A DNA stretch of 64,000 nt, from positions 22,198-86,197 of the forward strand of contig JBAQFC010000008.1 in the NCBI GenBank assembly GCA_049287045.1, read 5' to 3'. Under the pieces are notes generated by a model. It was given only the letters and a program-made list of their open reading frames with translations, had not been told where the DNA came from and searched no databases. How positions within the stretch are numbered: position 1 is the stretch's first letter; every line of letters begins with the position of its first letter. The position numbers were made by a program, and so were the translations under genes. This DNA comes from Minisyncoccia bacterium (GTDB lineage: Bacteria > Patescibacteriota > Minisyncoccia > Phycocordibacterales > UBA9973). This document shows, piece by piece, positions 9,670-54,552 of this stretch.

Positions 9670-10020
9670 TTAGTACTCTCGGCGTCCACCACTGCGATTT
9701 CCACCGCCGTATCCACCACTATTGCCTCCACTACTGTATCCACCTGCTCCACCAGTTCTTGGTGGGCGAGCTTCCATAGGGCGAGCTTCATTAACTGTAA
9801 GTTTGCGTCCTTCGAATTCCTGACCGTTAAACATTGAGACAGCACCTTGTGCTTCCTCGTCTGTTGACATTTCAACGAATCCAAAACCTTTTGAGCGACC
9901 GGACATTTTGTCCATGATAATCACAGCGGAAGTTACATTTCCTGCTTGTGCGAAAAGCTCTTTAAGAGCATCTTCTTGGGTACTGTAAGGAAGTCCCCCT
10001 ACGTATAGCTTTGTAGCCAT
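9670..10020 (-). CDS. RRM-type glycine-rich RNA-binding protein
   Basis: RNP-2 (LYVGGL) and RNP-1 (KGFGFVEM) motifs plus a C-terminal GGYGGGN-rich tail. Confidence 0.85.
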   Translation of the reverse strand: MATKLYVGGLPYSTQEDALKELFAQAGNVTSAVIIMDKMSGRSKGFGFVEMSTDEEAQGAVSMFNGQEFEGRKLTVNEARPMEARPPRTGGAGGYSSGGNSGGYGGGNRSGGRREY

Positions 10021-10224
10021 ATTATTATTTCTCCCGTTTTAAAAAATCGGGCAAAAACTAATTATAATGCGTAGATACTCTTGTCGCTCAATTGGCCTAA
10101 TTGGTGCCAAAAATTCAAAACTCACAACTCAAACAAAAAGCTATTGGAGAAACTACTGGAGCAGTATAGCACAAAAGTGAGAAAAAGCAATGAAACTATA
10201 CTGTGTGGATAAATACTATAAACA

Positions 10225-10253
10225 ATATGTCAAAGGGCATCTTTGACATATTG
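10225..10253. promoter_or_regulatory. perfect inverted repeat aatatgtcaaag-ggcat-ctttgacatatt (terminator of prfA and/or operator)
   Basis: 12-bp perfect stem just downstream of the prfA stop, inside the long leader region of the RRM gene; carries TTGACA on both strands. Confidence 0.35.
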
Positions 10254-10273
10254 TTGACATATTTAACACAAAG

Positions 10274-11245
10274 TTATTCTTCGTCTTCATCCCCCACGAC
10301 CCCGGATTCAATAGATTCTATAACCTCTCCGATTCCACCTTCCATTATTTTTGGTAGGTTATGCCATGATTTTTTAATACGGTGATCAGTCACACGGTCT
10401 TGAGGAAAATTATATGTACGAATTTTCTCACTTCTGTCCCCTGTACCAATTTGTCCTTTACGTTCACTAGAATATTTTTTTGCTTCCTCTTCATCTTTTA
10501 ATTGCTGAATTTTAGCAGTCAAAATCATCATCGCTTTTTCACGGTTTGCAAGCTGACTTCTTTCATTCGTCGAACGAACATCAAGACCTGTAGGTATGTG
10601 TATCAAACGCACAGCCGTCTCAACCTTGTTCACATTCTGTCCGCCTTTGCCCCCGGAGCGAGAATATTCCATTTCCAAATCGACTGGATTGATAACAAAA
10701 TTAACTTTTTTCTTGATAGGTAAAATAGCCACCGATGCTGTCGAAGTATGAACTCGGCCATTTTTTTCTGTTGCAGGAATTCTCTGGACACGATGCACAC
10801 CAGTTTCATAACGCATTTTTTTATAAACATCTTTTCCTTTTATTTCAAAACTCGCTTCTTTATATCCACCGATATCATTTTTGGATTCATCATTTACTTT
10901 CCACTGCCAACCCTGAACTTCAGCAAGTCTTTCATACATATGAGCAAGTTCCCAAGCAAAAAGAGCTGCTTCATCACCTCCAGCTCCAGCTCGTACCTCG
11001 AGTACGATTTCATTTGGAAATTCTTCTTCCTCTTTGTCTTTATCTAAAATTTCTTGTATCTGCTTCTCAGTACCTTCTTTTTGTTCTTGAATTGACTTAA
11101 GCTCAATTTGAGCCATTTCGTGCAAAGTATCATCACCTGCAAGCATTTCTCTTACCTCAGCCTCTTCGCGAGCTAATCGCTCTAAAATACCCGCCAAGTA
11201 GCTGGTGTTGTGATTCTTTTTAAGTTCTTCTAAATCTAAAGTCAT
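10274..11245 (-). CDS. prfA: peptide chain release factor 1
   Basis: GGQ motif (SGGKGGQNVNKVET) and the RF1-type PAT tripeptide (RIPATEKNGRVHTS). Confidence 0.85.
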   Translation of the reverse strand: MTLDLEELKKNHNTSYLAGILERLAREEAEVREMLAGDDTLHEMAQIELKSIQEQKEGTEKQIQEILDKDKEEEEFPNEIVLEVRAGAGGDEAALFAWELAHMYERLAEVQGWQWKVNDESKNDIGGYKEASFEIKGKDVYKKMRYETGVHRVQRIPATEKNGRVHTSTASVAILPIKKKVNFVINPVDLEMEYSRSGGKGGQNVNKVETAVRLIHIPTGLDVRSTNERSQLANREKAMMILTAKIQQLKDEEEAKKYSSERKGQIGTGDRSEKIRTYNFPQDRVTDHRIKKSWHNLPKIMEGGIGEVIESIESGVVGDEDEE

Positions 11246-11303
11246 AAATTTATTATATCATCAAAAACACCCTCCTTGTGTAAAGGAGGGTGTTTAGAAG
11301 AAG

Positions 11304-11516
11304 TTATTTCTTTGGAGATGCAGCTCGGCGCTTGTTGAAACGTTCTACGCGTCCAGCAGTATCCATGATCTTTTCATTACCAGTATAGAAAGGGTGACAC
11401 TGACTGCAGATTTCAACTGAAATTTCAGGCAAAGTGGAACCAACTTCAAACTCAGCCCCACACGCACAGGCGGCCTTGGTTTTTGTGCTAAATTTTGGAT
11501 GTATACCTTTTTTCAT
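11304..11516 (-). CDS. rpmE: 50S ribosomal protein L31
   Basis: 70 aa, MKKGIHPKF...CxxC...C..CHPFYTG. Confidence 0.9.
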
Positions 11517-11537
11517 ACTTAAGAGATTATCATAAAC

Positions 11538-12881
11538 CTAGTTTGAAAGCAAATCTATATCAGCTTGGATGATCCTAGCTTTTTTCATAACACCATCACC
11601 ATAGAAAGCATTAGCCTTTTTATTCCAGTTACCACCAGCATAATATTTCAAAGCAGCGGTACGTTCGGCAGTAAATCCACCTTTTGAGGCACCTAATTCT
11701 CCTAAATAAATAGAAGATGCAAAGAAAGCGTCTTTAGGCTCCCATGGATTTGGCATTCCACTTATACCAAGTGCTTTCGCAATTTTTGATGCATAAAGTT
11801 CCCACGTAGAAGGAATAAATTGTGAAGGGCCCATCGCTCCACCATAACCACCATTCCAAGGACAAGAAAGTGGAGTACCTTCTGGATTAATTCCTAAGGC
11901 CGAAGTGATTCTCTTAAATGGTTCCAAGTCACGGCTTGGTTTCATAATATTCGTCCAGTTTTTTGCAGCTGAATCAGTAACACGGTTACATGTACCAATA
12001 TTTTCGCCCAAATTTGTTTCTTGAGTAAGAATAGCTAGTACAAATGCTGGACGTACCCCGGTCTTTTTCTCAGCCTCTTGAGCATACTTCAAAGCTGTAC
12101 CGAAAGGAATTGCTTTAGTGTCACGCAATGCAAAAAGTGCAGAACGAATTTTGTCAGCTCTAGCTTTTTTATCAGCAGCAAGTTTTTGATAAGCAGATTC
12201 TTTTTCTTTTGAAATGGCTAATAACTTTTTCTTATCCGCTTCTGATTGAACAACTTTTTTCTGTGCACTTTGTAGTTCATCTCTAGCATCAATTTCTGCA
12301 TTTTGTTTTATCTCTAAATCTTTCTTTTGTATTTCTGTTTCTTGTTTTACTCCAGTAATTTCTTCAACGGAAGCTTTTACAGCTTGCTTGATAGAAGCAT
12401 AAGATTCTAAATCGCTATAAAAATCTGAAACGGATTGATCAGAAAGAATCAAATGTATCATATTTTCATTATCAAACTCATTTGTATTACGTAAAAGCTG
12501 AGCAAGAGATTCATGCTCACGATCTATCTTATCTGAAAGAGTCCCTATTGTTTTTACTTTTTCATTAATAGAAACTTTTAATTGTGCAATGACTAACGCA
12601 CGGGCTTTGATTTTGGTTTTTAAAGCATTAATCTGGCTAGTCAAATAATTAACATCACCTTTCAGTGTACCAGTCTGTTTCTGTTGTTCTTTTTGTTTTG
12701 CTAAGAGCTCAGTCAGCTGTTGCTCAATTTGACTTAATTCACTACGACAGTAATCCTTGTCTGTCTGAGAAGAGGAAATAGAAAGTGTTAAACAATCAAA
12801 AACAGCGAATGTTTTATTCACCGAAAAACTTGAAAATAAAAATATAGCAAAAATAAAAGCCATGACCATTTTCCGTATCAT
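11538..12881 (-). CDS. coiled-coil protein with C-terminal lytic transglycosylase (SLT/MltB-like) domain
   Basis: Signal/TM at the internal Met, long Q/K/E coiled coil, C-terminal ILTQETNLGE...GPSQFIPSTW resembling MltB-type transglycosylases. The track start at 12959 overlaps rplY. Confidence 0.5.
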   Translation of the reverse strand: MIRKMVMAFIFAIFLFSSFSVNKTFAVFDCLTLSISSSQTDKDYCRSELSQIEQQLTELLAKQKEQQKQTGTLKGDVNYLTSQINALKTKIKARALVIAQLKVSINEKVKTIGTLSDKIDREHESLAQLLRNTNEFDNENMIHLILSDQSVSDFYSDLESYASIKQAVKASVEEITGVKQETEIQKKDLEIKQNAEIDARDELQSAQKKVVQSEADKKKLLAISKEKESAYQKLAADKKARADKIRSALFALRDTKAIPFGTALKYAQEAEKKTGVRPAFVLAILTQETNLGENIGTCNRVTDSAAKNWTNIMKPSRDLEPFKRITSALGINPEGTPLSCPWNGGYGGAMGPSQFIPSTWELYASKIAKALGISGMPNPWEPKDAFFASSIYLGELGASKGGFTAERTAALKYYAGGNWNKKANAFYGDGVMKKARIIQADIDLLSN

Positions 12882-12912
12882 AGCTTCTATTATAACATAA
12901 TTTGAATTATTT

Positions 12913-13551
12913 TTATTCTGCAGGAGTAGCTTCCTCTTCTTTCTTTCCTTTCTTTTCAACTTCGATAGCGGATAGATCTACTGGGGAAGCTTCTTCTTCT
13001 ACTTCTTCTACTTGAACAGCAATAGAAGCAATAACTTCATCAGCTTCACCAAGAATTGTAACTCCGGCTGGGACTTTCAAATCTGAAATAAGAACCTGGT
13101 CGTGTAAAGTTTTAAGTTTAGAAATATCAACGACGATATTGTGTGGAAGATCTTTTGGAAGAGCTTCAACTTCGATTTCGTGTGCTACTTTAACAAGAGT
13201 TCCTGTTCCATTTTTAACAACTTCAGAAACACCTTCGAATTCAAGAGGAACACTGACAGTGATCTTCTTGTTCATATCAATAGCCAAGAAATCAATGTGT
13301 ATAGGTTCATCTGTAACAGGGTCAACTTGAACATCATGGATTAGAACATTTACTTTTCCTTCTGGAGTTGTAATTTCAACTGTAGAAGATTCTCCAGCTT
13401 TCAACCAAACTTTTTTAAATTCTATTTTTGATACTGAGATGGAGGTAGTTTTCTTATCTGCTCCATAAAATACAGCGGGTAATTCACCTGCTTTTCGCAT
13501 TTCTTTTAAGTCTTCTTTAATATCTCTACTTTTCGCTGTTAATTTAAGCAT
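12913..13551 (-). CDS. rplY: 50S ribosomal protein L25 / general stress protein Ctc
   Basis: L25 beta-barrel N-terminus (LKLTAKSRD...ELPAVFYG) plus the Ctc-type C-terminal extension. Confidence 0.85.
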   Translation of the reverse strand: MLKLTAKSRDIKEDLKEMRKAGELPAVFYGADKKTTSISVSKIEFKKVWLKAGESSTVEITTPEGKVNVLIHDVQVDPVTDEPIHIDFLAIDMNKKITVSVPLEFEGVSEVVKNGTGTLVKVAHEIEVEALPKDLPHNIVVDISKLKTLHDQVLISDLKVPAGVTILGEADEVIASIAVQVEEVEEEASPVDLSAIEVEKKGKKEEEATPAE

Positions 13552-13624: not shown

Positions 13625-14278
13625 CTAAATTCCCTCTTTTTTCAACTCTTCTAGAAGCTCACGGGCTTTCTTGGAAATCTTACTTGGTATTTTTATTGTA
13701 ATAAGAATATACAAATCTCCGGGTTTTCCATTTTTTATTTGCTCTCCACCACCAGTCATTTTTATGGTCTGACCACTCTGAATTCCAGCTGGAATTTTTA
13801 TTACAATATCGTCATGTCCACTAATGGATATTTTTTTATCTGAACCTAAAATAGAATCAACAAGAGAAATAGATAATTCAGTCTTCATATCTCTTCCACG
13901 TGGAGTTCTCTGAGTACGAAAACCACCACCAAAAAATTCACCAAAAATATCATTTAAATCAAAATCTGCACTTCCTCCATTTTGGAAACCAGAAAAATCG
14001 AAACCTTCAAACCCTCCACCGAAACCACCTTGCTGGTATCCACCTTGTCCTCCACCACCTTGCATATTTTCAAAACCGGGACCATATTGATCGTATTTTG
14101 AACGCTTGGAATCATCAGAAAGAGTCTGGTAAGCTTCATTTACCTCCTTGAATTTAGCTTCATCGCCCTCTTTTTTATCAGGATGATATTTGTGAGCCAA
14201 CTTATGAAAAGCTTTTTTGATCTCTTCTTTTGACGCGCCTTTTTCTACCCCTAAAGTTTTGTAATAATCTTTTTTCAT
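13625..14278 (-). CDS. DnaJ-like J-domain chaperone (J + G/F + one CTD; no zinc finger)
   Basis: DYYKTLGV...HKYHPDKK J domain with HPD, a G/F-rich linker, and a DnaJ C-terminal beta domain. Confidence 0.7.
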
Positions 14279-14335: not shown

Positions 14336-15322
14336 TTAATTATTCTTTGAAATAAGATTCAAAATTAGTTTAACAATCTTGTCTTTATGATTTGGATCAC
14401 TTTCCGCAACAAGAACTGTAAGCGCTGTTAAGGCTGAAGGGCTTAATTTTTGTATATCGAGTATATTCGCCTGCTTCAATAACCAAACAAAAGCAAAAGC
14501 TCCTGAACGCTTATTACCATCAGTAAATGGATGGTTCTTTACCATAAAATACAAAAGATGTGCAGCCTTTTCTTCAACTGTTGGATAAAGTTCATTGCCT
14601 CCGAATGACTGCATTACATTACCAACTATTCCCGACACAGAACCAACATTTCTTTCGTGACCAAAAATATCTGTCGCTTCACCTTTTTCAATAAGAATTT
14701 TTCTAAGCTCGGATAAATCTCGTGAAATTTTTTCGGAGGTGATGTTAACTTTCTTTTTTGTAAGCTTTCCTTTCGATAAAATTTCTCGATCATAAGCATC
14801 CAAAGAAAGCCAAGTATCAGCAAAAAGTGATATAAGTTCTATAGCATCTTTTGGATTAACCGCAGATTCAGCTGGCAAAAGTTTTTTAATATCATCAACA
14901 ACATTTAAAAAATGTTCATAATTTTTAGCAATTCGGTTTTTATTTATTGCAAAACCATCTACGATATAGCTTCGTAACGTTTTTGTTGCCCACTGACGAA
15001 ATTCAATAGCCTTCTTTGAACTTGTTCTATATCCAACAGCTAAAATAACATCAAGATTATAAAATTGTACCTGATACACCTTTCCATCATCTGCAGTATG
15101 TGCAAATTTTGCACATACTGAACTAGCATTAAGTTCTTTATCATTAAGAATATTTCTTATATGCTTAGTCACAACAGATCTTTCAGTCTGAAAAACATCA
15201 GCAATCTGCGCCTGAGTAGCCCACACAGTTTCACGAGAAAAATCACCACGAAGTTCAATAGCTCCATTTTTAGCTTGGTAAATAACTACATCTTTCTTTT
15301 TTAGTGTCTTTTTTAATACCAT
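14336..15322 (-). CDS. RhuM-family N-terminal domain fused to Doc/Fic toxin-like domain
   Basis: N-terminus KNGAIELRGDFSRETVWATQAQIADVFQTERSVVTKHIRNI...FYNLDVILAVGYR matches the RhuM (SPI-3) virulence family. C-terminus HPFTDGNKRSGAFAFVWLL is the Fic/Doc HxFx(D/E)GNKR motif. Confidence 0.7.
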   Translation of the reverse strand: MVLKKTLKKKDVVIYQAKNGAIELRGDFSRETVWATQAQIADVFQTERSVVTKHIRNILNDKELNASSVCAKFAHTADDGKVYQVQFYNLDVILAVGYRTSSKKAIEFRQWATKTLRSYIVDGFAINKNRIAKNYEHFLNVVDDIKKLLPAESAVNPKDAIELISLFADTWLSLDAYDREILSKGKLTKKKVNITSEKISRDLSELRKILIEKGEATDIFGHERNVGSVSGIVGNVMQSFGGNELYPTVEEKAAHLLYFMVKNHPFTDGNKRSGAFAFVWLLKQANILDIQKLSPSALTALTVLVAESDPNHKDKIVKLILNLISKNN

Positions 15323-15393: not shown

Positions 15394-15412
15394 ACATAGG
15401 AAACTCCTATGT
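15394..15412. terminator. hairpin terminator after the coupling-protein-like ATPase
   Basis: acatagg-aaact-cctatgt 7-bp stem right after the stop at 15417. Confidence 0.4.
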
Positions 15413-15416
15413 ATAA

Positions 15417-17512
15417 CTATTCTAAAATCTTCTTTAACACATCTTCAGGCACTTCTTTTATATTTTTTGGAGGTGTTGGGACTGGAATTTCTTTTTTTAC
15501 TTCCTCATTCACCGGCTCAACTTTTTTTTCTTGTGATGCTGCTGGTACTTTTTCAAAAATAAAATTTTTAAGTTTATTCATATCTTCTGCACTTGCAGAT
15601 CTATCATTATTTATAGAGGTTGCTGATACAGGATTTGATCTTTTTAAATCACTCAATGACATTGCAGGAGGTGGTACGGGAATTTTAATTTCTTTTACTT
15701 CTGGTACTACAACCGGTTTCTCTAAAACTTTATTCTCAGACAGAGTCTTATTTAAAATATCTCTCAAAGCTGTATTTTCAATAGGCTTTACTGACATCGG
15801 TATAGAACGAACAAATGGCTTTGGAATTTCTTTTTGAACTGGAGGTTCTGAAGCAATAGGAACTTTAGGAAAAATTTTTGGTTCCACAGAACCATGTCGT
15901 GCAATGTCCACTGGACGACTAGAAATAATCGGTATAATAGGCTTCAAAACTTTTGTAAGTGTTGAAAGAATTCCTGGTTTAACAGGCTCCTCAACTTTTT
16001 TAACCTCAGGTTCTTTAACAGGAGCTGGTTGTGGAACAGGTTTTATCTCTCCGGATTTAATTTTAGCTATACAATCCTTACAATATATAGGTCTTCCTGG
16101 TTCAGGTTTAAACGGCACCGATGTTTCCTTTTTACAATTAGAACAAACAGCTGGGAATTTTTCTACATTACTGATAGGACTGGTACTGACAATATTGCCA
16201 ATAGACATACCACTCCAATCATTTATTTCTTGTTCAACAACTTCTTTGGATTTACAGTAAAGAGCACGAGACATACTAATAACTTTATCTTCTACTTGTG
16301 TATCTGGATTTTTCGCTATTGGAGGCAACGTCTTCGCAGAAAAAGGTCGTGAACCGATACCATCAATCATCAGACGAAGATAAATACGGTAGTTCGGTAA
16401 ATTCACAATATCTTGTGGAGTAAATTCTGGTTCAAATTCTTTTTCTAGGAATAATGCATCATCAGCACCCACTCGGAATACAATCATCGTACCAACGTTA
16501 CCGAAGACAGCATCACGCACAGCGGAAGACCCATCAATAACAAGCTGAGCAGTATACTGGTGTGCAACGGTTAGATTCAATCGATACTTTCGAGCTTCAG
16601 ACAAAATACTAGCAAAAGAATCGGTCACGAAGTTTTGGAACTCGTCGACATATAAATAAAAGTCTTTTCTTTCATCTTCTGGAATACGCACGCGCTCCAT
16701 CGCAGCGAGCTGGATCTTGGTAATAATCATACCTCCAAGCAATGCGGAATTATCTTCACCAATACGTCCCTTGGAAACGTTCACCAAGAAAATTTTACCT
16801 TCATTCATGATATCAAAAACATTGATGGTACTCATTGATTGACCTACAACATTTCTAATGATGGAAGAAGAAAGAAATTGTCCGACTTTGTTTTGAATCG
16901 GAGCAATAGCTTCATTTCTAAATTTTTCATTCCAAGCTTCATACTCGTGAATCCAAAAAGCTTTGATGACCGGGTCTTTCAAATTTTCAATTATTTTTTT
17001 ACGGTACTCTTTGTCCACCAACATTCTAGGAATACCAAGAAGAGTCGAACCCGGAGTATCGAGCAATGCAAGAATTGTATTATTCAAAATATATTCCATA
17101 CGAGCAGACCAAGCATTCGCCCAGATCTTGGTGAAAATTCCCATCAAACCTGAAGCAACCAAATGTTTATATTTTGGATCTAGAATTTCAATAACATTAA
17201 AGCCGATATGATAATCCGTATCGGCTGGGTTGAAATAAATAACATCTTTGATACGGTCAGTTGGAATAGATTGTAAAACACTTTCAACTAATTCTCCGTG
17301 CGGATCAACAACACAAACACCATCACCGTTTTGTATATTCTGAACAATCATATTGGAAAGAAGCACGGATTTACCGGTACCTGATTTTCCGAGAACATAT
17401 ACGTGCTGGCGTCTGTCTCTGCGCTTCATACCAAAAATCTGATTCTTATCTCGAAAGGTTGTCTGACCTATATATGTCATATCTTTATTGATTGGTATTT
17501 TAGGATTCTCCA
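15417..17512 (-). CDS. type IV secretion coupling-protein-like (TraG/TraD/VirD4 family) ATPase with C-terminal zinc ribbon and Pro/Lys/Glu-rich tail
   Basis: Walker A VLGKSGTGKS, VVDPHGEL, Walker B YVDEFQNF and a TVAHQY...QL region resemble TrwB/TraG-type NTP-binding domains. Then CSNCKK...CKDC, followed by ~230 aa of PxxPxK low-complexity. Start at the internal MENPKIP (ATG 17510-17512). Confidence 0.5.
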
Positions 17513-17562
17513 TAAATTGAATTATAGCAAAAATTAAAAATAGGTGAAAGTAAAAATCCCCT

Positions 17563-17596
17563 CCAACCAAAGTCGGAGAGGATTTTTACTTTCTGC
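17563..17596. terminator. Rho-independent terminator downstream of dnaK
   Basis: aaaatcccctcc...ggagaggattttt stem-loop followed by a T-run on the minus strand. Confidence 0.5.
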
Positions 17597-17623: not shown

Positions 17624-19540
17624 TTATTTTGCAGCTTCGTCAGCGGCTGGAGTTTCACCCTCCTTAGAATCAGCTTCATGAGTAGTAGCTTCTTCTTTTG
17701 GCTCTACTGGTGGTGCACCGGCATCATCTACTTTAGAAGATGCTTTTGCCATCTCTTCACCGATCTTGGACATCTCGCTAGAAAGTTCTTCAGTAGATTT
17801 TTTAATTGCATCCAAATCTGAACCTTCTTTCACTCCACGCAATGCTGTTATTTTTTCTTCAACACCTTTCTTTGTATCTTCAGAGATTTTTCCTTCATTA
17901 TCTTTCAATGCTTTTTCTGCTGTAAAGATAGTCATGTCGGCTGTGTTTTTTGCATCAGCGACTTCTTTTTTCTTTTTATCTTCATCAGCATGAAGCTCTG
18001 CGTCTTCTTGCATTTTTTTAATATCTTCAGGTTTCAATCCAGAACTAGCTTCAATTCTGATAGTCTGAGTTTTACCACTAGTTTTTTCTTTCGCAGTAAC
18101 ATTTAAGATTCCATTGGCATCAACATCGAAAGTCACTTCAACTTGTGGCATACCACGAGGAGCTGGAGGAACACCGTCCAAGATAAATCTTCCTAGAGAT
18201 TTGTTATCAGAAGCCATTGGACGCTCTCCTTGCACGATATGAATTTCGACAGAAGTCTGATTGTCAGCTGCAGTTGAAAATGTTTGTGATTTTGAAGAAG
18301 GGATAGTTGTATTTCTTTCTACAAGTTTTGTCGCAACTCCTCCAAGTGTTTCGATACCCAAGGAAAGAGGAATAACATCAAGCAAAAGAACATCACGTAC
18401 ATCACCTTGCAATACTCCAGCTTGGACAGCAGCACCGAGAGCTACCACTTCATCAGGATTGATTGTAAGGTTTGGAGTTTTACCGAATAATTTCTTTATT
18501 TCTTCGACAATTTTTGGCATTCTGGTCTGTCCTCCGACCATTATGATTTCATTTATTTCTTCGATTTTAAATCCAGATGCTGCAACTGCACGCTTTGCAA
18601 TATCTATCGAACGAGTAATATATTCATCAGCAATAGATTCCAATTGAGCACGAGTCATTTTCAACAACAAGTGTTGAGGACCAGCTGCGGTGGAAGTTAT
18701 GAAAGGAATATTTATTTCAGTTTCAATAGCTGTTGAGAGTTCGATTTTTGCTTTTTCTGCAGCTTCATCAAGACGCTGCAATGCCAATGCATCAGTTCGT
18801 ACATCTACACCGGAAGTCTTTTTAAATTCATCAGCAATCCAATTTATAATTTTATGATCAATATCGCGTCCACCAAGGTGACTATCACCATCAGTAGATT
18901 TTACTTCAATAACATCATCACCAACTTCAAGAACAGAAATGTCAGTTGTTCCGCCTCCGAAATCGTAGACTACAATCTTTTCATTTTTCTTTGAGTTCAA
19001 ACCATAAGCCAATGCTGCAGCTGTCGGTTCATTGATAATTCTTTTTACAGTCAGGCCAGCAATTTTACCCGCATCAATAGTTGCTTGTCTTTGTGTGTCA
19101 TTAAAATATGCAGGTACAGTAATAATCGCTTCAGTGATCTTCTCACCGATCTTTGCTTCCACGTCTGTTTTTATTTTTGACAAAATCATCGCAGAAATTT
19201 CTTCTGGACGCATCCACTTGTCTCCGATTTTTACTTCAACTCCACCATTTGCGCCTTTCTGAATTTTGAAAGAAGCATTCTTTAAATCTTTCTGCACTTC
19301 CGGATCTTCAAAATTGTGACCCATAAAACGCTTGATACCATAGATGGTATTTTCAGGATTTGTAACTGCTTGTCTTTTTGCTAAAAGACCGACAAGTCTG
19401 TCTCCATTTTTTGCAACAGAAACTACCGAAGGAGTCGTACGAGCACCTTCAATATTTTCTATTATTTTTGGCGCACCACCTTCGATGATAGCGACCGCTG
19501 AGTTTGTTGTACCTAAGTCTATTCCTATTATTTTTGCCAT
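17624..19540 (-). CDS. dnaK: molecular chaperone DnaK (Hsp70)
   Basis: [18 protein letters not shown], full 638-aa Hsp70 with an acidic C-terminal tail. Confidence 0.95.
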
Positions 19541-19803: not shown

Positions 19804-20343
19804 ATGAATATGTCAACTAAACCCGACTATTCCAAGAAAATACTTAAGATTTTAGGCGAAAAAACAGCTATTTCCCTGCCTGATTTAACTAATCAAGTAA
19901 ATAGTAAAGACTGCTCTCAAAGCTCCGTATACGCCATCACACGCTCATTAAAAGGGCTTCGTGAAGCTGGTCTGATAGAAAATATTTCCTCCGGGCAAAA
20001 TGATTATGCTCGCCTAACAAAAGAGGGCAAAAAGAAAATAAACAGCCTAAAGCTCGACAGTGACACCACCCTCGTTGATACTTCCTGGGACGGGTTTTGG
20101 AGAATTATTTTACTCGACTTACCAGAGACTAGAAAAAGCGAACGTGAATCTCTTCGTTATTTATTAAAAAAGGCTGGGTTCGTGTGTCTCAAAAATTCCG
20201 CATGGATCTCCCCTTACCCTTATGAACATCTTTTTGAAAACATCAAAAAAGATTTAGAGCTCACTACTGAGATGATGATAATAAAAACTCAATTCATCGA
20301 CGAAGAAACTAAAAAGTTTTTATTTGATACTTTCAAGAAATAA
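19804..20343 (+). CDS. PaaX-family transcriptional regulator (wHTH + Cas2-fold C-domain)
   Basis: C-terminal WDGFWRIILLDLPETRKSERESLRYLLKKAGFVCLKNSAWISPYP matches the PaaX_C signature (WDG.W.....IPE..R..R..LR..L...GF..L.NSVWISP). Confidence 0.6.
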   Translation: MNMSTKPDYSKKILKILGEKTAISLPDLTNQVNSKDCSQSSVYAITRSLKGLREAGLIENISSGQNDYARLTKEGKKKINSLKLDSDTTLVDTSWDGFWRIILLDLPETRKSERESLRYLLKKAGFVCLKNSAWISPYPYEHLFENIKKDLELTTEMMIIKTQFIDEETKKFLFDTFKK

Positions 20344-25253: not shown

Positions 25254-26528
25254 TTATGGGTAATTCACTATAATATCTATTTTTTGTTTTTTATCAGGTA
25301 AGGAACTCTTCCATGCTGGACGTAAAACTAAGTCAGCTGAATTGATATTAGAATATTTAGAAAATATACTATTAAAATCCTTCTTCTTTGTATTTAAAAG
25401 ATCAATAACAAGCTTTTCATTTTCTACTTTCCAGACAATCTTGGTTTTACCTTTTAATGTGAAATTTATATTTTTTACATCTCCGAATGATATATTTTCC
25501 TTGTTGGTAAGAGAGAATAATAAATCTTTAATTTTGGAAACATAGACATCACTGCCATCATAATCTTCAATATTTGAAGTAGCAATTTTTTTTGTTAAAT
25601 CTTTTTCATTAAAGAAAAAACCATATAGTGTTCCTTTTACACCGATTGAAACTTGACCACTCGCAGGGATAAAATCAACTGTCGCATCTTCGTTCTTAAA
25701 AAAGACTGCATCCTTAAATAAAATATATTCACTTGGAATTTGTTCAGTGGCCTTTTTAAATAATTTTGCTTGTAAAGTAGTCTTTAAATCATTTACAATA
25801 GTTTCTTTTTCAGTGTCAGAAATCTGACCAAATTTACCTTTGAGTCCACCAGTTATTGGTGACTTTGATCTAGCATAAATTTTTGAATATTTAGAAGTTC
25901 CCTTAAAACCAAAAATCTTAAAATCAAGTGGAGCACTATTATACTCACTCCCGGCTTCTTTTCCAGAGATATTTACTTCTACACGCCCTGGAGTGCCGTC
26001 TTTAGCCATTCCTGGCACGACAATCTTGGCATCTGTTGTGTACATCTTACCGTTTGACCCTTCAAGCCGTGTATCGATACTGAGAGACTGTGGAGCAGAA
26101 CTAAAAGTATTAAAAATAGTAACAACTCCTTTAGCTTTTGCAGAAACATCTTTTTCCTCTCCACCTGGTACTATTTTAATTTCTTTGTCAGAAATTGAGA
26201 TTAACTGAAAAGATAGACCGTCTGTACTTGAATCCTTGGTGGCAGACAAAGTCTCATTTAATTCCAAATCTTTTACTTTTGGATTAACAGTAACTTTTGC
26301 CCTAGAGAACAAAAAAGAAAAAGCAAAAAGTAGAAATACAACAGAAACCAACGCAACAAACCAAAGTGCATATCTGGAATTATTATTTTCCTCTACATGA
26401 TAATTAAAATGAGATTCTTTAAATTCAGGTTTTTCTATTTTTTCTTTCTTTTCTATTTTTCTTTCTGTAAGTACATCTCTATTTATACGTTTTATTTTTA
26501 CAATATCTTGAAAAGACTTTTTGGGCAT
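25254..26528 (-). CDS. hypothetical bitopic membrane protein (cytoplasmic K/E-rich N-terminus, one TM, ~350-aa external domain)
   Basis: TM segment YALWFVALVSVVFLLFAFSFLF; sits downstream of the actin-like ATPase gene. PilN/FtsQ-like topology but no sequence call possible. Confidence 0.4.
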   Translation of the reverse strand: MPKKSFQDIVKIKRINRDVLTERKIEKKEKIEKPEFKESHFNYHVEENNNSRYALWFVALVSVVFLLFAFSFLFSRAKVTVNPKVKDLELNETLSATKDSSTDGLSFQLISISDKEIKIVPGGEEKDVSAKAKGVVTIFNTFSSAPQSLSIDTRLEGSNGKMYTTDAKIVVPGMAKDGTPGRVEVNISGKEAGSEYNSAPLDFKIFGFKGTSKYSKIYARSKSPITGGLKGKFGQISDTEKETIVNDLKTTLQAKLFKKATEQIPSEYILFKDAVFFKNEDATVDFIPASGQVSIGVKGTLYGFFFNEKDLTKKIATSNIEDYDGSDVYVSKIKDLLFSLTNKENISFGDVKNINFTLKGKTKIVWKVENEKLVIDLLNTKKKDFNSIFSKYSNINSADLVLRPAWKSSLPDKKQKIDIIVNYP

Positions 26529-33397: not shown

Positions 33398-34651
33398 TTA
33401 TATAGGCAGATTAGAAGGAGGAGCTGCCTCTTTTGATTCAATACGTTCAAGAGTAGGAACCTGTAATATCTGACCTGGAAAATGAAAAATAGTAGCCAAC
33501 TCTTCAGTGTTAAGAACCGAAATATTTGGATGACTATATTTTGGAAAAAATAATGAAACAGGAAAAGGAATTGGAATATGGTGTATAAGAGGTGGGTAAA
33601 AGAAAGCTCTCTCTCTGTACTCTTCAAGCATTCTGTCTTTAAATCTAAAAAGAGAAGTAGAAGTGTATTGCCAAAAATGACTGAAACTTGTTGTATTCAC
33701 TCTCTTAAAACTATTCAAGGATGCTGACTCATACTGGCGGAAAATTAAACGAAGATTACGCTTGGTATTGTTTTGAAAATTTTCTTTCTTTGCCACATAA
33801 CAAACTCTTATTCCTGTATCGAACCCAACCTTGGCGCTTTTTTTGGTCATACCTTCCAAGACAGGATCCAACCATTTTGGTAATAATTTAAATGAAGATT
33901 CACCCTCTCCTTTTGTATATTTTTCGGTAAGCTCTTTCATTACATGTTCTGATTCTTCAAGCCATCCATGATGTTTTGATCTTGTGCCATGAGTATGAAA
34001 TTTTTTTTGTGAAGGTGCTATAACTATTTGCATCCATACTTGTTCACCTTTTTCGATTGAACCAAAAAGTTCTATAACCGGAGAAATCGGATCAACCTTG
34101 AATTCTTCTTTAGGGTCTTTATCTAATCCAAAATCAACATAAGTTTTAATAGGATATGCATCAGGTTTTGCTAAAGTAAATTCACACCCCCAAAGATCCC
34201 ATCCGCTCTGAGGTGATATTTTATTAACAGCTAAAGTATAATCCTCTGCTACTTTTACTTGTGCTTGAGGATACTGCGCATACAATTGAGTCTCGATTAA
34301 ACTCTTCATTCGGGATGGAGCTCGAAGATAAAAATGAACCTGACCTCCAATAGAAACAATCTCAAGTGAAAACCACAACTGAACTGCTCCAAGCCAGTAT
34401 GTTTCAAGAAATCCTTTATTACTTAAAGAATAAAGTCCGTTAGTAAAAAATAATTCCATTGCCTTAGGTGATCTTAAAACATCTCGTGGAGGAACTATTT
34501 CAAGCAGAACCCAATCAATACCAGCAATGAAATCATGTTCTACATAGTGATGCCAAAAAAGCCATGCAAAATGAGCAAGGAGTGCGAACCCAACAAAGGG
34601 CCAAACTGCGGAAAAAATATACGAAGAAAAATAAACTATTGAATCAACCAT
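33398..34651 (-). CDS. hypothetical membrane protein
   Basis: 417 aa with two N-terminal TM helices and a Trp-rich soluble domain; no family assigned. Confidence 0.4.
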   Translation of the reverse strand: MVDSIVYFSSYIFSAVWPFVGFALLAHFAWLFWHHYVEHDFIAGIDWVLLEIVPPRDVLRSPKAMELFFTNGLYSLSNKGFLETYWLGAVQLWFSLEIVSIGGQVHFYLRAPSRMKSLIETQLYAQYPQAQVKVAEDYTLAVNKISPQSGWDLWGCEFTLAKPDAYPIKTYVDFGLDKDPKEEFKVDPISPVIELFGSIEKGEQVWMQIVIAPSQKKFHTHGTRSKHHGWLEESEHVMKELTEKYTKGEGESSFKLLPKWLDPVLEGMTKKSAKVGFDTGIRVCYVAKKENFQNNTKRNLRLIFRQYESASLNSFKRVNTTSFSHFWQYTSTSLFRFKDRMLEEYRERAFFYPPLIHHIPIPFPVSLFFPKYSHPNISVLNTEELATIFHFPGQILQVPTLERIESKEAAPPSNLPI

Positions 34652-34845: not shown

Positions 34846-35874
34846 TTAAGCTAAAGTATAAAGTCCGTTTTTGTTCTTCTTAAAGTATTTTGGATTCTGT
34901 AGATTTACTAAAATAGTATTCTTTTTAAAATATCTTTCTTTCATTACTCTTTCTACTACATCTTCTTTTGAAAGTGGTCCTTCTCTTTTTAGAATGTCAC
35001 GGATAACTTCACGAGCGATTCCTGTCTTGTAGCCCCATTCTGCAAGAGCGTACATTCCACGTCCAACAAGGACAAAGCGAGGGTCTTTGATAAGTTCATT
35101 GTGACAAGTTGCATAGTGTGTCTTTCTTCCAAAAGTTTTAGAAATAGAATCAGCAACTTCACGGAAGTGCATAGGATTACCATGTTTTCTCATTACTAAA
35201 AAGGCATAGTCTTTTACTCCACGAGTGTGAATATTTGGTGATGTTGATTTACCCCATTCTCCAAGAGGATTCTTTGATATAGTTTTAGAAATTGTCAGCC
35301 ATCTCTTAGCCATCTCTTCATTTTTGAACTGTTCAGAAACATCTTTCATTTGATCAAAAAACTTTTTAATCATTTCAGTTTCAGGAACAAGATCTGCATC
35401 ACTCAAACTTGAATAAAGTTTTTTTAGAGAATCATGAACTTTAGAAGCCATATCATCATCAATACTCCAACGTGTTTGGAAATGATCGTCTTCACGATGT
35501 TTCTTGAAGGAATCACCTAAAACCATATAAAAATGAATGTGGTTCTGAGTAGCTTTATCTTTTGATATTGAAGGCAAAAATTCATGTTCAGCGACAATTG
35601 AACCAAGAGAATGTATCAATTGTTTTATCTCATCAAAAGTAACCTGTTCTGCTTTATAAGCATCAGATTTCTTGATTGAAGCCAAAGCGGCATCTTCAAT
35701 CTGTCGAACACGTTCTCGTGTGATACTGTATTTCTTACCGATTTCTTCTAGAGTTTTACGTTGAGCATCAGCAGTCAAACCAAAACGATTCATGATAACA
35801 TCGCTCGCACGATCCTGAAGATGTGAAGTTATTTTCTTTGTTACTTGTTTTGGTTTAAATGATATTGTTGACAT
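34846..35874 (-). CDS. DNA-binding protein with N-terminal sigma-70 region-4-like HTH and C-terminal HARE-HTH domain
   Basis: SITRERVRQIEDAAL is the sigma r4 motif. The C-terminus FREVADSI...IKDPRFVLVGRGMYALAEWGY matches the HARE-HTH pattern seen in the RNAP delta subunit. Confidence 0.5.
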   Translation of the reverse strand: MSTISFKPKQVTKKITSHLQDRASDVIMNRFGLTADAQRKTLEEIGKKYSITRERVRQIEDAALASIKKSDAYKAEQVTFDEIKQLIHSLGSIVAEHEFLPSISKDKATQNHIHFYMVLGDSFKKHREDDHFQTRWSIDDDMASKVHDSLKKLYSSLSDADLVPETEMIKKFFDQMKDVSEQFKNEEMAKRWLTISKTISKNPLGEWGKSTSPNIHTRGVKDYAFLVMRKHGNPMHFREVADSISKTFGRKTHYATCHNELIKDPRFVLVGRGMYALAEWGYKTGIAREVIRDILKREGPLSKEDVVERVMKERYFKKNTILVNLQNPKYFKKNKNGLYTLA

Positions 35875-53763: not shown

Positions 53764-54552
53764 TTATTGAACTTTAGGTACTTCTGTTATTGAAACAGGA
53801 ACCGGTACTGGTTTTAATGCCTCAGTAATTACAGAAATTTGGGCAAAAGAGGAGTTATCACCTGATAAAGCAATTCCAAGAACGTTTCCATCTAGGTCAA
53901 GAACTACTCCCCCAGCATTTGATTTTGTAACATTAATTTTAAGATCTTTTGATCCATCGAACATAAAAGAAGAAATCGATCCACCTAGGACTATTATTTT
54001 CTGTCCTATTTTCATTTTAGTAAAATCTCCCCAAGTAGGTAAAGCGAAAACTAGTTTATTTTTTTCATCCAACGGTGCACCAATTTTTAAAAATGAAAAT
54101 CCATCTTTTGTAGAAACGAAATCTGCTTTAAATGTACCTGAACTATTTTTAACATAATAAGCCACACTATTATCCGGCACTAAGGCCGCATCAGTTACAA
54201 TCATACCATCGATAGATATAACAAATCCTTTCCCAGCAGAAATTTCAATGATTGCACCAAGTTCATCAACCGACTCCTTGGTAACTGAGAAAATAGCAGA
54301 TTTATTTTTAGCAATCGCATCCACTACTAAATCTTCTTCCTTAATAATAATTGTCTGCGCTGGTTTTCCCATATCTGTCGGTACTATTTTTTCAACAGTC
54401 TGCCTAATAATTCTATTAATAGGTACCGTTACAGAATCTGGAGCTTGTTGCATTAGAGCAACAGTTGTAATACCAGTAGCCAATGAAGTAACGAAACTCA
54501 AAAGTAATGCCAATAATATTAATTGTGGTTTATTTAAATCTTTGATATCCAT
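53764..54552 (-). CDS. membrane-anchored trypsin-fold (S1C/HtrA-like) domain protein, possibly catalytically inactive
   Basis: N-terminal TM; the C-terminus TKSNAGGVVLDLDGNVLGIALSG parallels GNSGGPLVNxxGxVIGI, but the nucleophile position reads Ala. Confidence 0.35.
   Translation of the reverse strand: MDIKDLNKPQLILLALLLSFVTSLATGITTVALMQQAPDSVTVPINRIIRQTVEKIVPTDMGKPAQTIIIKEEDLVVDAIAKNKSAIFSVTKESVDELGAIIEISAGKGFVISIDGMIVTDAALVPDNSVAYYVKNSSGTFKADFVSTKDGFSFLKIGAPLDEKNKLVFALPTWGDFTKMKIGQKIIVLGGSISSFMFDGSKDLKINVTKSNAGGVVLDLDGNVLGIALSGDNSSFAQISVITEALKPVPVPVSITEVPKVQ

What the first reader, a model, noticed from the sequence alone, without database searches (positions are those of the whole stretch)
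15417..17512. Unusual architecture: soluble TraG/VirD4-like NTPase + CxxC...CxxC zinc ribbon + ~230-aa Pro/Lys/Glu/Val-rich tail
Canonical coupling proteins have N-terminal TM helices. This protein has none, and instead ends in a zinc ribbon (CSNCKKETSVPFKPEPGRPIYCKDC) and a long PxxPxK/E low-complexity region reminiscent of extended linker or cell-wall-spanning segments. It could be a cytoplasmic DNA/protein translocase adaptor or a HerA-like enzyme.
Basis: inference. Interest (0 to 1): 0.5.

Follow-up and report, generated by a model that had tools for sequence, protein, structure and literature searches.

The report
Split coupling-protein-like ATPase of Patescibacteria
This gene encodes a real, highly conserved motor ATPase related to conjugation "coupling proteins"; it lacks a membrane anchor because in this bacterial lineage the anchor half of the protein is encoded by a separate gene 16 kb away, and nothing links it to a conjugation or secretion gene cluster.

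Summary
Window 15417-17513 (-) encodes a 698-aa protein with no membrane segment. It has a TrwB/VirD4-like P-loop NTPase (res 11-435), a flexible linker, a CxxC-x17-CxxC zinc ribbon (451-487) and a ~210-aa Pro/Lys/Val/Glu-rich tail.

The tail is a variable region carrying five short conserved helix-prone motifs, including an almost invariant C-terminus (KEVPEDVLKKILE). It is unlikely to span the cell wall.

More than 8000 Paceibacteria/Minisyncoccia proteins share this architecture at 63-76% identity. In relatives the gene sits between dnaK and dnaJ, usually with a second soluble paralogue (38/42 loci) and arrays of Cys-rich ~570-aa proteins. This window lacks both.

Main new result: in other Patescibacteria the same motor (median 55% identity) is fused behind a membrane-anchored DUF8128 domain and preceded by a sigma70-r4/HARE-HTH gene. 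This window has that HTH gene (34846-35874) followed by a stand-alone DUF8128 gene (33398-34651). The DUF8128 gene stops where the fusions continue into the motor, within a few residues of where the target begins. One metagenome locus has the two halves as adjacent genes 4 nt apart, with the zinc ribbon.

I read the target as the detached motor half of a T4SS-independent, membrane-docked translocase. Its substrate is unknown; DNA is my best guess.

The parts
15417..17513 (-). Target CDS: 698-aa soluble T4CP-like ATPase + zinc ribbon + variable low-complexity tail (NCBI MFZ2205247.1, 'CxxC-x17-CxxC domain-containing protein', Minisyncoccia bacterium)
16209..17483 (-). Folded NTPase region, res 11-435 (RecA-like core of the VirD4/VirB4/HerA clade)
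17367..17390 (-). Walker A, GKSGTGKS (res 42-49)
   Evidence: G42, G45, G47 and K48 invariant across three subfamilies
16845..17177 (-). All-helical insertion between Walker A and Walker B (res ~113-223), matching the all-alpha domain of coupling proteins
   Evidence: secondary structure of the model; Pfam TrwB_AAD_bind spans res 30-349
16638..16661 (-). Walker B, FYLYVDEF (res 285-292). The downstream motifs SEARKYRLN (305-313) and AHQYTAQL (317-324) align with TrwB's GRKAG and LQSTSQL.
16164..16208 (-). Flexible linker, res 436-450
   Evidence: pLDDT about 34
16053..16163 (-). CxxC-x17-CxxC zinc ribbon module, res 451-487 (four Cys at 457, 460, 478, 481; Cys core at nt 16071-16145)
   Evidence: PF23477 and TIGR04272 above their curated cut-offs; modelled as two short beta strands plus a helix, pLDDT about 80; present in 82/82 relatives
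15420..16052 (-). Variable low-complexity tail, res 488-698, carrying conserved short motifs
   Evidence: composition; most of the tail has pLDDT below 50 in a low-confidence full-length model, with helices at 581-593, 620-623, 642-655 and 690-697; length 175-326 aa in relatives
15945..15977 (-). Tail motif PGILSTLTKVL (res 513-523; family consensus PGIFSxIKKVF)
15729..15779 (-). Tail motif ENTALRDILNKTLSENK (res 579-595)
15642..15662 (-). Tail motif MSLSDLK (res 618-624; family consensus ISLxxLK)
15549..15605 (-). Tail motif DRSASAEDMNKLKNFIFEK (res 637-655)
15420..15458 (-). Conserved C-terminal motif KEVPEDVLKKILE-COOH (res 686-698)
   Evidence: present in 76/82 aligned relatives, and in most members of both synteny groups
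17546..17593 (-). Terminator-like hairpin after dnaK (20-bp stem followed by a T-run)
17521..17548 (-). Promoter-like site, TTCACC-16-TATAAT with an upstream TG. The -10 element ends 7 nt before the ATG, so the transcript would be leaderless or nearly so.
   Evidence: a consensus match only
33398..34651 (-). Stand-alone DUF8128-type protein, 417 aa, with an N-terminal hydrophobic anchor (res ~8-30). Inferred to be the detached membrane half, and so the docking partner, of the target.
   Evidence: BLASTP E=2e-34 over res 3-417 against res 4-384 of the fused protein P0173; P0173 and its relatives carry the precomputed tags PF26449+PF10412; hydropathy; it ends at the fusion junction
34846..35874 (-). 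Sigma70 region 4 + HARE-HTH protein, 342 aa. This is the gene that also precedes the fused or split DUF8128-ATPase in L085, L086, L090 and L092.
17624..19540 (-). dnaK. A conserved upstream neighbour in one clade; a functional link is not shown.
13625..14278 (-). Short dnaJ (217 aa). It marks the downstream end of the conserved dnaK...dnaJ interval; a functional link is not shown.

Best explanation
The gene encodes the motor half of a split protein.

In many Patescibacteria one polypeptide carries an N-terminal membrane anchor, a ~380-aa DUF8128 domain, a coupling-protein-like (TrwB/VirD4-type) ATPase and a charged tail. It is encoded directly after a sigma70-r4/HARE-HTH DNA-binding protein. 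In this Paceibacteria-type genome the anchor+DUF8128 half (33398-34651) stays next to the HTH gene. The ATPase half is an independent gene in the dnaK-dnaJ interval.

Shown:
- Homology, domain anatomy and intact catalytic motifs.
- Fused, split-adjacent and split-dispersed gene arrangements.
- Strong purifying selection.
- No T4SS genes among the neighbours examined.

Inferred:
- The ATPase forms a ring, as TrwB, HerA and VirB4 do.
- It is recruited to the membrane in trans by the DUF8128 protein.
- The zinc ribbon and the short conserved motifs in its flexible tail (above all the invariant C-terminus) dock partners or substrate. Candidates are the DUF8128 protein, the HTH protein, the second ATPase paralogue and the Cys-rich ~570-aa neighbour proteins that carry the same ribbon type.
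- ATP hydrolysis then moves or remodels a polymer at the membrane. DNA or nucleoprotein is the most likely substrate, given the DNA-binding partner gene, the zinc ribbons and the ancestry of the motor.

It is a core chromosomal function, not a conjugation module.
For: Anatomy and fold:
- Pfam and NCBIfam assignments.
- Closest solved sequence is TrwB, E=9.5e-8. A family profile also reaches DotL.

Split gene:
- The 417-aa product of 33398-34651 aligns end to end with the DUF8128 region of fused proteins (E=2e-34). It stops at '...PPSNLPI', where the fusions continue into the motor.
- The target begins a few residues downstream of that point.
- The same sigma70-r4/HARE-HTH gene precedes DUF8128 in the window, L090, L092 (split) and L085, L086 (fused).
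- L092 has DUF8128, a stop codon, a 4-nt gap, then an ATPase 56% identical to the target that carries TIGR04272 at 41 bits.
- The target's NTPase is 55% identical (median, n=119) to fused motors. The paralogue is 46%.
- Among the 150 closest cluster representatives the ribbon occurs only in forms that have no N-terminal extension: 17/86 against 0/64.

Core, non-conjugative character:
- More than 8000 homologues at 63-76% identity.
- At least 589 species genomes.
- No T4SS families in four annotated relative loci or among the window ORFs scanned, including every ORF of 550 aa or more.
- Literature: VirD4-like genes in 2918 of 3035 Patescibacteria genomes, with only 148 of 5713 near virB4. The authors raise exaptation (PMC12102498).

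Tail as docking region:
- Variable length with conserved motifs and helices.
- 34/142 neighbouring Cys-rich proteins match the target's ribbon HMM at E<=1e-3. None of the shuffled controls do.
Against: - No experiment or complex model shows that the two halves interact. A gene fusion elsewhere is suggestive, not proof.
- The DUF8128 label rests on BLASTP to proteins carrying a precomputed PF26449 tag. The local Pfam copy lacks that model. The DUF8128 profile has no solved relative, so its fold and topology are unknown.
- The anchor's hydropathy is only moderate (1.64).
- The substrate is a guess.
- The second paralogue and the Cys-rich proteins, present near the gene in most relatives, are absent from this 64-kb window. 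Their role here is therefore uncertain.
- Only four relatives of the DUF8128 arrangement were examined outside the window.
- T4SS genes may lie elsewhere in the genome, so a distant functional link is not excluded.
- The ribbon-versus-split association is not corrected for phylogeny.
Confidence: 0.55

Rival explanations
1. It is the genuine coupling protein of the Patescibacterial (monoderm-type) type IV secretion system. It would be encoded away from virB4 and recruited to the channel by protein contacts instead of its own TM helices.
For: - Sequence and fold place it in the T4CP clade.
- T4SSs are widespread and essential in cultivated Patescibacteria, and t4cp genes are often encoded far from virB4 (PMC12102498, PMC12857230).
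- Flexible C-terminal tails that dock adaptors are typical of T4CPs. DotL is among the structural hits.
Against: - No T4SS or relaxase genes in the window ORFs scanned or in four annotated relative loci.
- Only 148 of 5713 such genes lie near virB4. The homologue in Ca. Southlakia was not essential although the T4SS was.
- T4CPs with the TMD deleted are non-functional in conjugation (PMC7431656).
- The conserved partners are DUF8128 and an HTH protein, not VirB proteins.
- There are about two copies per genome, and identity is very high for a mobile-element gene.
Confidence: 0.18
2. It is an Hsp70-linked ATPase. It would be a protein unfoldase, translocase or client-delivery factor working with DnaK/DnaJ/GrpE, as its position inside the dnaK operon suggests.
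For: - DnaK lies upstream within the flank in 39 of 59 informative loci, immediately upstream in 21.
- DnaJ lies downstream in 37 of 56.
- The same order is found in the window.
Against: - A second clade keeps the ATPase pair with no DnaK within 10 kb.
- Fused and split-adjacent relatives sit elsewhere, next to the HTH gene and cell-wall genes.
- In the window a strong terminator-like hairpin and a separate promoter-like site lie between dnaK and the gene.
- ClpB, the usual DnaK-coupled disaggregase, is present at 51016-53691.
Confidence: 0.08
3. It is the motor of a defence or DNA-surveillance system, akin to DptH of Dnd restriction, mad8 of MADS, or HerA of Sir2/DUF4297-HerA systems.
For: - PADLOC mad8 E=5e-16, plus HerA models.
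- Relatives outside the phylum sit in non-mobilisable plasmids, next to CHAT-domain proteins or transposases.
- The neighbour here is a PDC-S23 candidate defence gene.
- The number of Cys-rich neighbour genes varies from locus to locus.
Against: - The gene is near-universal and very slowly evolving, in a fixed housekeeping location. Defence genes are typically patchy (PMC12102498).
- The window has no nuclease, methylase or Sir2 partner next to it.
- The PDC-S23 gene is absent from the relatives' loci.
Confidence: 0.07
4. It is a HerA-like DNA-repair helicase or translocase.
Against: - NCBIfam HerA scores 14.5 bits against a cut-off of 970.
- T4CP models and TrwB score better by sequence.
- No NurA-type or other nuclease partner turned up among the neighbours scanned.
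- No HerA-type N-terminal barrel was seen: only two short strands precede the P-loop.
Confidence: 0.04

Closest known systems
Type IV coupling proteins (TrwB of R388, VirD4, TraD, TraG, Cagbeta, DotL)
   Same: - P-loop NTPase with the same Walker A/B and the downstream RK and Q motifs.
- A helical insertion in the position of the all-alpha domain.
- Best sequence and Foldseek matches.
- A flexible C-terminal extension. In F TraD (binds TraM) and in DotL (binds adaptors) such an extension recruits partners; this point rests on my own knowledge of those systems.
   Different: - No TM domain in the polypeptide.
- No T4SS or relaxase neighbours.
- Chromosomal core gene at 63-76% identity across hundreds of species.
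- Carries a CxxC-x17-CxxC ribbon.
- Partner genes are DUF8128 and a sigma70-r4/HARE-HTH protein.
- Scores far below the curated cut-offs of every TraD/VirD4 equivalog model (for example 52.5 against 366 bits).
DUF8128 (PF26449) + TrwB_AAD_bind fusion proteins of other Patescibacteria (e.g. Berkelbacteria, CPR2), ~850-1150 aa
   Same: - The motor domain is 48-57% identical (median 55%).
- A long charged tail.
- The same upstream HTH gene.
- The window's 417-aa gene plus the target together cover the fused protein's anchor, DUF8128 and motor regions, with only a short unmatched stretch at the junction.
   Different: - Here the two halves are separate genes 16 kb apart.
- The target has a zinc ribbon, which none of the 64 representatives carrying an N-terminal extension has.
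- Function is unknown for both forms. I found no paper on DUF8128.
VirB4 C-terminal ATPase domain and the DptH/DndH C-domain
   Different: - Sequence models for VirB4 score 10.8 bits against a cut-off of 643.
- No VirB4 N-terminal domain in the polypeptide.
- No Dnd genes nearby.
HerA / FtsK / TcpA ring translocases
   Same: Same superfamily core. They support the expectation of a hexameric, polymer-translocating ring.
   Different: Lower structural and sequence scores. No HerA-type barrel, FtsK gamma domain or NurA partner was seen.
CxxC-x17-CxxC (TIGR04272 / PF23477 zf_Tbcl_2) small proteins of Methanosarcina mazei
   Same: Same domain model, above the curated cut-offs. Two M. mazei members were shown to bind zinc by ICP-MS (PMC12704099).
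   Different: There the domain is a stand-alone small protein of unknown function. Here it is a module between an ATPase and a variable tail, and it recurs in the neighbouring Cys-rich ~570-aa proteins of relatives.

Membership tests
Type IV coupling protein (VirD4/TraD/TraG/TrwB) | Nucleotide-binding domain with Walker A/B of the TrwB type | tested here: met
   PF10412 E=4.5e-12; TrwB alignment across Walker A, Walker B, and the RK and Q motifs; Foldseek TrwB E=1.4e-14
Type IV coupling protein (VirD4/TraD/TraG/TrwB) | All-alpha domain inserted in the NBD | tested here: met
   The model shows a helical insertion at res ~113-223, between Walker A and Walker B, with block-mean pLDDT 83-94. This is taken from model topology; there was no residue-level superposition on the TrwB all-alpha domain.
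Type IV coupling protein (VirD4/TraD/TraG/TrwB) | N-terminal transmembrane domain in the same polypeptide (present in most T4CPs and required for function of TrwB, PcfC and MobB) | tested here: not met
   Highest KD19 is 1.21, and Walker A starts at res 42. A candidate anchor is encoded separately at 33398-34651. TMD deletions are non-functional (PMC7431656).
Type IV coupling protein (VirD4/TraD/TraG/TrwB) | Genomic or functional linkage to a T4SS (VirB4) and/or a relaxase | tested here: not met
   No such families among the window ORFs scanned, which include all ORFs of 550 aa or more, nor in L001, L003, L085, L086. The rest of the genome was not seen. Literature: 148 of 5713 lie near virB4.
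Type IV coupling protein (VirD4/TraD/TraG/TrwB) | Score above the curated cut-off of a TraD/VirD4 equivalog or subfamily model | tested here: not met
   SXT_TraD 52.5 bits against 366; conj_TOL_TraD 36.7 against 647; CD1115 34.8 against 250
Type IV coupling protein (VirD4/TraD/TraG/TrwB) | Delivers substrate to a secretion channel | not testable with these tools
   Needs genetics or biochemistry.
Patescibacterial DUF8128-associated T4CP-like ATPases (fused or split) | Motor domain orthologous to that of PF26449+PF10412 fusion proteins | tested here: met
   Median 55% identity to 119 fused motors, against 46% for the paralogue
Patescibacterial DUF8128-associated T4CP-like ATPases (fused or split) | A DUF8128 anchor domain encoded in the same genome, preceded by a sigma70-r4/HARE-HTH gene | tested here: met
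   Window 33398-34651 (BLASTP E=2e-34, full length) and 34846-35874. The split-adjacent form is L092.
Patescibacterial DUF8128-associated T4CP-like ATPases (fused or split) | Physical interaction between the two halves when they are split | not testable with these tools
CxxC-x17-CxxC domain (TIGR04272 / PF23477) | Four Cys with 2-17-2 spacing, and a score above the curated cut-offs | tested here: met
   51.6 bits against 36; 50.1 bits against 27
CxxC-x17-CxxC domain (TIGR04272 / PF23477) | Binds zinc | not testable with these tools
   Shown only for M. mazei small proteins (PMC12704099).
HerA helicase | HerA equivalog score, an N-terminal barrel and a NurA partner | tested here: not met
   14.5 bits against 970. 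No barrel was seen in the model. No NurA-type or other nuclease partner turned up among the neighbours scanned.
VirB4 | VirB4 family score and an N-terminal VirB4 domain | tested here: not met

The most novel reading that the evidence does not exclude
Patescibacteria possess a near-universal, T4SS-independent membrane translocase. It is built from a sigma70-r4/HARE-HTH DNA-binding protein, a DUF8128 membrane anchor and one or two coupling-protein-derived ring ATPases. In Paceibacteria these are joined by arrays of zinc-ribbon proteins that dock through the same CxxC-x17-CxxC module. Such a machine would move DNA or nucleoprotein at the membrane, for example chromosome handling at division or DNA exchange or uptake with the host. 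That would make it a previously unrecognised core cell-biology system of the Candidate Phyla Radiation, not a conjugation remnant.
Probability: 0.3. Interest if true: 0.8.

Novelty: new variant of a known kind. Interest (0 to 1): 0.55.

Why it matters
VirD4-like genes occur in about 96% of Patescibacteria genomes, roughly two per genome. They are almost never next to the type IV secretion genes, and their role is an acknowledged open question (PMC12102498).

This analysis gives that question a concrete shape:
- The motor belongs to a conserved module with a DUF8128 membrane protein and an HTH protein.
- That module exists in fused, split-adjacent and split-dispersed forms.
- In Paceibacteria it has gained a zinc ribbon and a motif-bearing flexible tail.

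It also names the partners to test, and it gives the first functional context I could find for two domains of unknown function (DUF8128 and CxxC-x17-CxxC). For annotation, it warns against reading these genes as evidence of conjugation or of a complete T4SS.

Tried and rejected
- **Tail motif against partner genes.** I tested whether the tail motif missing in this protein (KFxKPLxDLGIEFE, present in 76/82 relatives) tracks the presence of the paralogue or the Cys-rich genes. It does not. The second synteny clade lacks the motif but keeps the paralogue.
- **Replacement of ClpB.** Rejected: ClpB is in the window.
- **Partner genes elsewhere in the window.** tblastn found neither the second ATPase paralogue nor the Cys-rich ~570-aa genes.
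- **First structure model.** Full length with 82 close homologues gave pLDDT 55.8, too poor for fold search. It was replaced by a model built on three subfamilies.
- **DUF8128.** A profile against PDB sequences gave nothing. The local Pfam copy lacks PF26449, so the 417-aa protein and the control P0173 both show no DUF8128 hit there.
- **afdb50 fold library.** Unavailable.
- **Literature.** Searches for PF23477/TIGR04272, DUF8128 and dnaK-linked coupling proteins found nothing relevant.
- **Tail repeats.** No tandem repeats in the tail DNA.
- **FtsK substitute.** Weakened: FtsK is named in papers on the saccharibacterium TM7x (search hit only, papers not read).
- **Viral origin.** Only one distant 426-aa relative in IMG/VR, with neither ribbon nor tail.
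Full report
**1. Observation**

The minus-strand ORF listed mechanically as 15417-17570 starts at a TTG. That codon lies inside a 20-bp terminator-like hairpin after dnaK (17593-17546). All homologues align from the ATG at 17513. It is identical to NCBI MFZ2205247.1, a 'CxxC-x17-CxxC domain-containing protein' from a Minisyncoccia bacterium, on a 106.5-kb contig.

- There is no membrane segment. The highest 19-residue Kyte-Doolittle mean is 1.21.
- Pfam finds TrwB_AAD_bind (res 30-349, E=4.5e-12), DUF87, T4SS-DNA_transf, TraG-D_C and the zinc finger PF23477 (res 452-484, E=2e-13). NCBIfam finds TIGR04272 at 51.6 bits against a cut-off of 36.
- The quoted ribbon sequence is at res 457-481.
- The tail after the last Cys is 217 aa. 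Residues 491-698 are P 15.9, K 13.9, V 12.5 and E 10.6 %, with no tandem repeat in the DNA.

**2. Anatomy**

A full-length model built on 82 close homologues was poor, with mean pLDDT 55.8. Most of the tail fell below pLDDT 50, but the model placed short helices at 581-593, 620-623, 642-655 and 690-697.

A second model covered res 1-490, with an alignment drawn from three subfamilies. It reached mean pLDDT 86.7 and pTM 0.80. It shows:
- a RecA-like core with Walker A (42-49) and Walker B (285-292);
- a helical insertion at about 113-223;
- a floppy linker at 436-450 (pLDDT about 34);
- a small ribbon module at 451-487, with two short beta strands and a helix (pLDDT about 80).

Structural and sequence comparisons:
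- Foldseek against the PDB ranks TrwB first (E=1.4e-14, about 400-430 aligned columns). Cagbeta, HerA, DotL and the DndH C-domain follow.
- By sequence the only solved relatives are TrwB (E=9.5e-8) and, with a family profile, DotL.
- The Walker motifs, the SEARKY segment and the AHQYTAQL segment align with TrwB's catalytic motifs. Key residues in them (G42, K48, D290-E291, R308-K309, Q319, Q323) are invariant across the three subfamilies.

The enzyme therefore looks active.

**3. Family**

The 5.8-billion-protein search saturated at 8000 hits. The best 120 all have the same architecture, are 63-76% identical over the full length, and are named from Minisyncoccia, Paceibacterota or Nomurabacteria. 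At least 589 species-level genomes carry a relative. In the library of 50%-identity representatives, 6498 clusters match at E<=1e-30.

The NTPase is almost invariant among close relatives. The tail varies in length (175-326 aa) and sequence but keeps short motifs:
- PGIFSxIKKVF (here res 513-523);
- ENxALREILNKTLSENK (579-595);
- ISLxxLK (618-624);
- DRSASxEDMNKLKNLI (637-655);
- the C-terminus KEVPEDVLRKILE (686-698; 76/82 relatives).

A sixth motif, KFxKPLxDLGIEFE, is present in 76/82 relatives but missing here. All 82 relatives examined at DNA level keep the ribbon. This pattern fits a flexible linker with partner-docking motifs. It does not fit a wall-spanning segment.

**4. Neighbourhood**

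The window order is rpsI, grpE, a divergent PaaX_M-like regulator, dnaK, the target, a RhuM/Fic-DOC gene, a short dnaJ and rplY.

Across 82 relative loci:
- DnaK lies upstream within the flank in 39 of 59 informative loci.
- A second, even more conserved soluble paralogue (~500 aa, 44-45% identical to the target, 83-92% identical among 120 relatives) lies within 10 kb in 38 of 42 loci.
- One to seven copies of a Cys-rich ~570-aa protein with no Pfam, NCBIfam or PADLOC match lie in 33 of 42 loci.
- A second clade has paralogue, Cys-rich genes and target with no dnaK nearby.

The dnaK link is therefore clade-specific. In the window a terminator-like hairpin and a TG-extended -10 promoter-like site separate dnaK from the gene.

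The window lacks both the paralogue and the Cys-rich genes. A PADLOC PDC-S23 candidate gene sits there instead.

An HMM of the target's ribbon matches 34 of 142 Cys-rich proteins at E<=1e-3, at an N-proximal and a C-terminal site. It matches no shuffled control.

**5. The split gene**

Many of the closest representatives carry the motor after a 350-480-aa N-terminal extension that often begins with a hydrophobic segment. A search with one of them, P0173, returned proteins tagged PF26449 (DUF8128) + PF10412, from Berkelbacteria, CPR2 and other Patescibacteria. In two genomes such a gene directly follows a Sigma70_r4/HARE-HTH gene and lies beside the dcw cell-wall cluster, with no T4SS genes nearby.

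The window itself has a Sigma70_r4 + HARE-HTH gene at 34846-35874, followed by a 417-aa ORF at 33398-34651 with no family hit. The evidence that this ORF is the detached N-terminal half of the target:
- It aligns from residue 3 to its last residue with residues 4-384 of P0173 (E=2e-34).
- It ends '...PPSNLPI*' where P0173 continues 'PPENLPI-IIDTEENKNLSVFAATNFRHRKQKFGIK...GKTGTGKT'.
- The target begins 'MENPKIPINKDMTYIGQTTFRDKNQIFGMK...GKSGTGKS', and its MTYIG aligns about nine residues after the fused proteins' NLP motif.
- It has one N-terminal hydrophobic stretch (KD19 1.64, res 8-30), and yceG follows it immediately, so no motor remnant remains.
- Two close relatives (58-60% identity) have the same stand-alone gene in the same BipA-HTH-DUF8128-YceG order.
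- A more distant metagenome locus, L092, has the HTH gene, then DUF8128 ending in a stop codon, then 4 nt, then a 571-aa ATPase. That ATPase is 56% identical to the target and carries a TIGR04272 ribbon (41 bits) and a Lys/Glu tail.
- The target's NTPase is closer to 119 fused motors (median 55% identity) than the paralogue is (46%).
- Among the 150 nearest representatives the ribbon occurs in 17 of 86 forms that have no N-terminal extension, and in none of 64 that have one. This is not corrected for phylogeny.

I conclude that the 'soluble coupling protein' is the C-terminal half of a gene that is fused elsewhere. Its membrane anchor is encoded in trans.

**6. Mechanism**

*Shown:*
- homology to ring translocases, and intact catalytic motifs;
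- modular architecture: motor, linker, ribbon, motif-bearing tail;
- the fusion/fission series with DUF8128;
- the constant HTH partner gene.

*Inferred:*
- The protein forms a ring and docks on the DUF8128 protein at the membrane.
- The ribbon and tail motifs tether it or recruit partners: the paralogue, the Cys-rich ribbon proteins or the HTH protein.
- ATP hydrolysis moves a polymer.

I favour DNA or nucleoprotein as the substrate, for three reasons: the sigma70-r4/HARE-HTH partner, the zinc ribbons, and the DNA-handling relatives (TrwB, FtsK, HerA, DptH). This is a guess.

**7. Comparison and membership**

It works like a coupling protein and belongs to that clade by sequence. It fails three family criteria:
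- its own TM domain;
- linkage to a T4SS or relaxase;
- the curated cut-offs of every TraD/VirD4 model.

Published work shows that TMD-less TrwB, PcfC and MobB are non-functional in conjugation (PMC7431656). HerA and VirB4 membership also fail on sequence scores. Relatives at 27-40% identity exist on plasmids of Sulfitobacter, Embleya/Streptomyces, Bradyrhizobium, haloarchaea and Bacillus. The two contexts inspected held no T4SS genes.

**8. Novelty**

The protein is deposited and auto-annotated. A 2025 study counted 5713 VirD4-like genes in 2918 of 3035 Patescibacteria genomes, only 148 of them near virB4, and suggested possible exaptation (PMC12102498). That paper does not mention zinc or DnaK. 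I found no paper on the DUF8128 partnership, the zinc-ribbon/tail architecture, the paralogue pair, the Cys-rich arrays or the dnaK-interval location. I rate it a new variant of a known kind.

**9. Caveats**

- Only 64 kb of the genome was seen.
- No interaction was tested.
- The DUF8128 assignment is indirect.
- Structures are predictions.
- Promoter and terminator calls are consensus matches.
- Synteny counts come from 82 loci that are the best matches to two peptide patterns, not a random sample.

Noticed in passing
window 14336-15322 (-): A RhuM + Fic/DOC protein (328 aa) sits between the target and dnaJ. It matches the PADLOC candidate defence family PDC-S23 at E=1e-107. tblastn found it in none of the 84 relative loci searched, so it looks like a local insertion where relatives carry the paralogue and the Cys-rich genes.
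   Followed up: partly
window 13625-14278 (-): The dnaJ here is short (217 aa): J domain, Gly-rich region and part of the C-terminal domain, with no CXXCXGXG zinc-finger domain. Relatives L001 and L003 have 287-364-aa DnaJ proteins with that domain. A few other relative loci matched this short form better.
   Followed up: partly
window 19804-20343 (+): A PaaX_M-domain HTH protein is encoded divergently between grpE and dnaK. It is conserved in that position in nearly all dnaK-linked relative loci. It may be the regulator of the chaperone operon; no hrcA turned up among the neighbouring ORFs scanned.
   Followed up: partly
L001 10152-11879 and 140+ further genes in L001-L084: A family of Cys-rich ~570-aa soluble proteins with no Pfam, NCBIfam or PADLOC match, in arrays of 1-7 paralogues around the ATPase pair. 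The N-terminus reads CxxCxxxFxIxxxDxxFYEKIxVPPPTxCPxCR. A subset also carries N-proximal and C-terminal CxxC-x17-CxxC-like ribbons. Absent from this window.
   Followed up: partly
L001 13941-15446 and 120 proteins P0271-P0390: A second soluble T4CP-like paralogue (~500 aa, no ribbon, short acidic/basic tail) lies directly upstream of dnaJ in relatives. It is 83-92% identical across many genomes, so it is even more conserved than the target. Absent from this window.
   Followed up: partly
window 17513-17548 (-): A TG-extended -10 promoter-like element ends 7 nt before the ATG, with no Shine-Dalgarno sequence. The mRNA may be leaderless.
   Followed up: no
window 15409-15837, 15904-16260, 16029-16352 (+): ORFs of 100-140 aa lie antisense to the target, with Ser/Gly/Phe/Thr-rich translations. 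They mirror the low-complexity tail and are not likely to be genes.
   Followed up: no
L085 8882-9997 / 10001-12850; L086 8984-9997 / 10001-13126: In other Patescibacteria the HTH gene and the fused DUF8128-ATPase gene are separated by 3 nt. They lie next to the dcw cluster (ftsQ, murB/C/D/G, ftsW, mraY). In the window the stand-alone DUF8128 gene abuts yceG (mltG), and an FtsA-like gene lies at 26538-27725.
   Followed up: partly
L087 5001-6281 (IMG/VR UViG, 58.7-kb contig, GC 50%): A 426-aa stand-alone relative of the motor (50% identity, no ribbon, no tail) lies on a contig classed as viral, with a GC content unlike that of Paceibacteria.
   Followed up: partly
L061 12264-13868; L082 12359-13879: In the dnaK-less clade the target is followed directly by a ~510-530-aa Lamin-tail-domain (LTD) protein in both loci inspected.
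   Followed up: no
window 25254-26528, 53764-54552, 59962-61038, 1690-2400: ORFs of 236-424 aa with no significant Pfam family. The only hit is a weak, sub-threshold Trypsin_2 match for 53764-54552.
   Followed up: no
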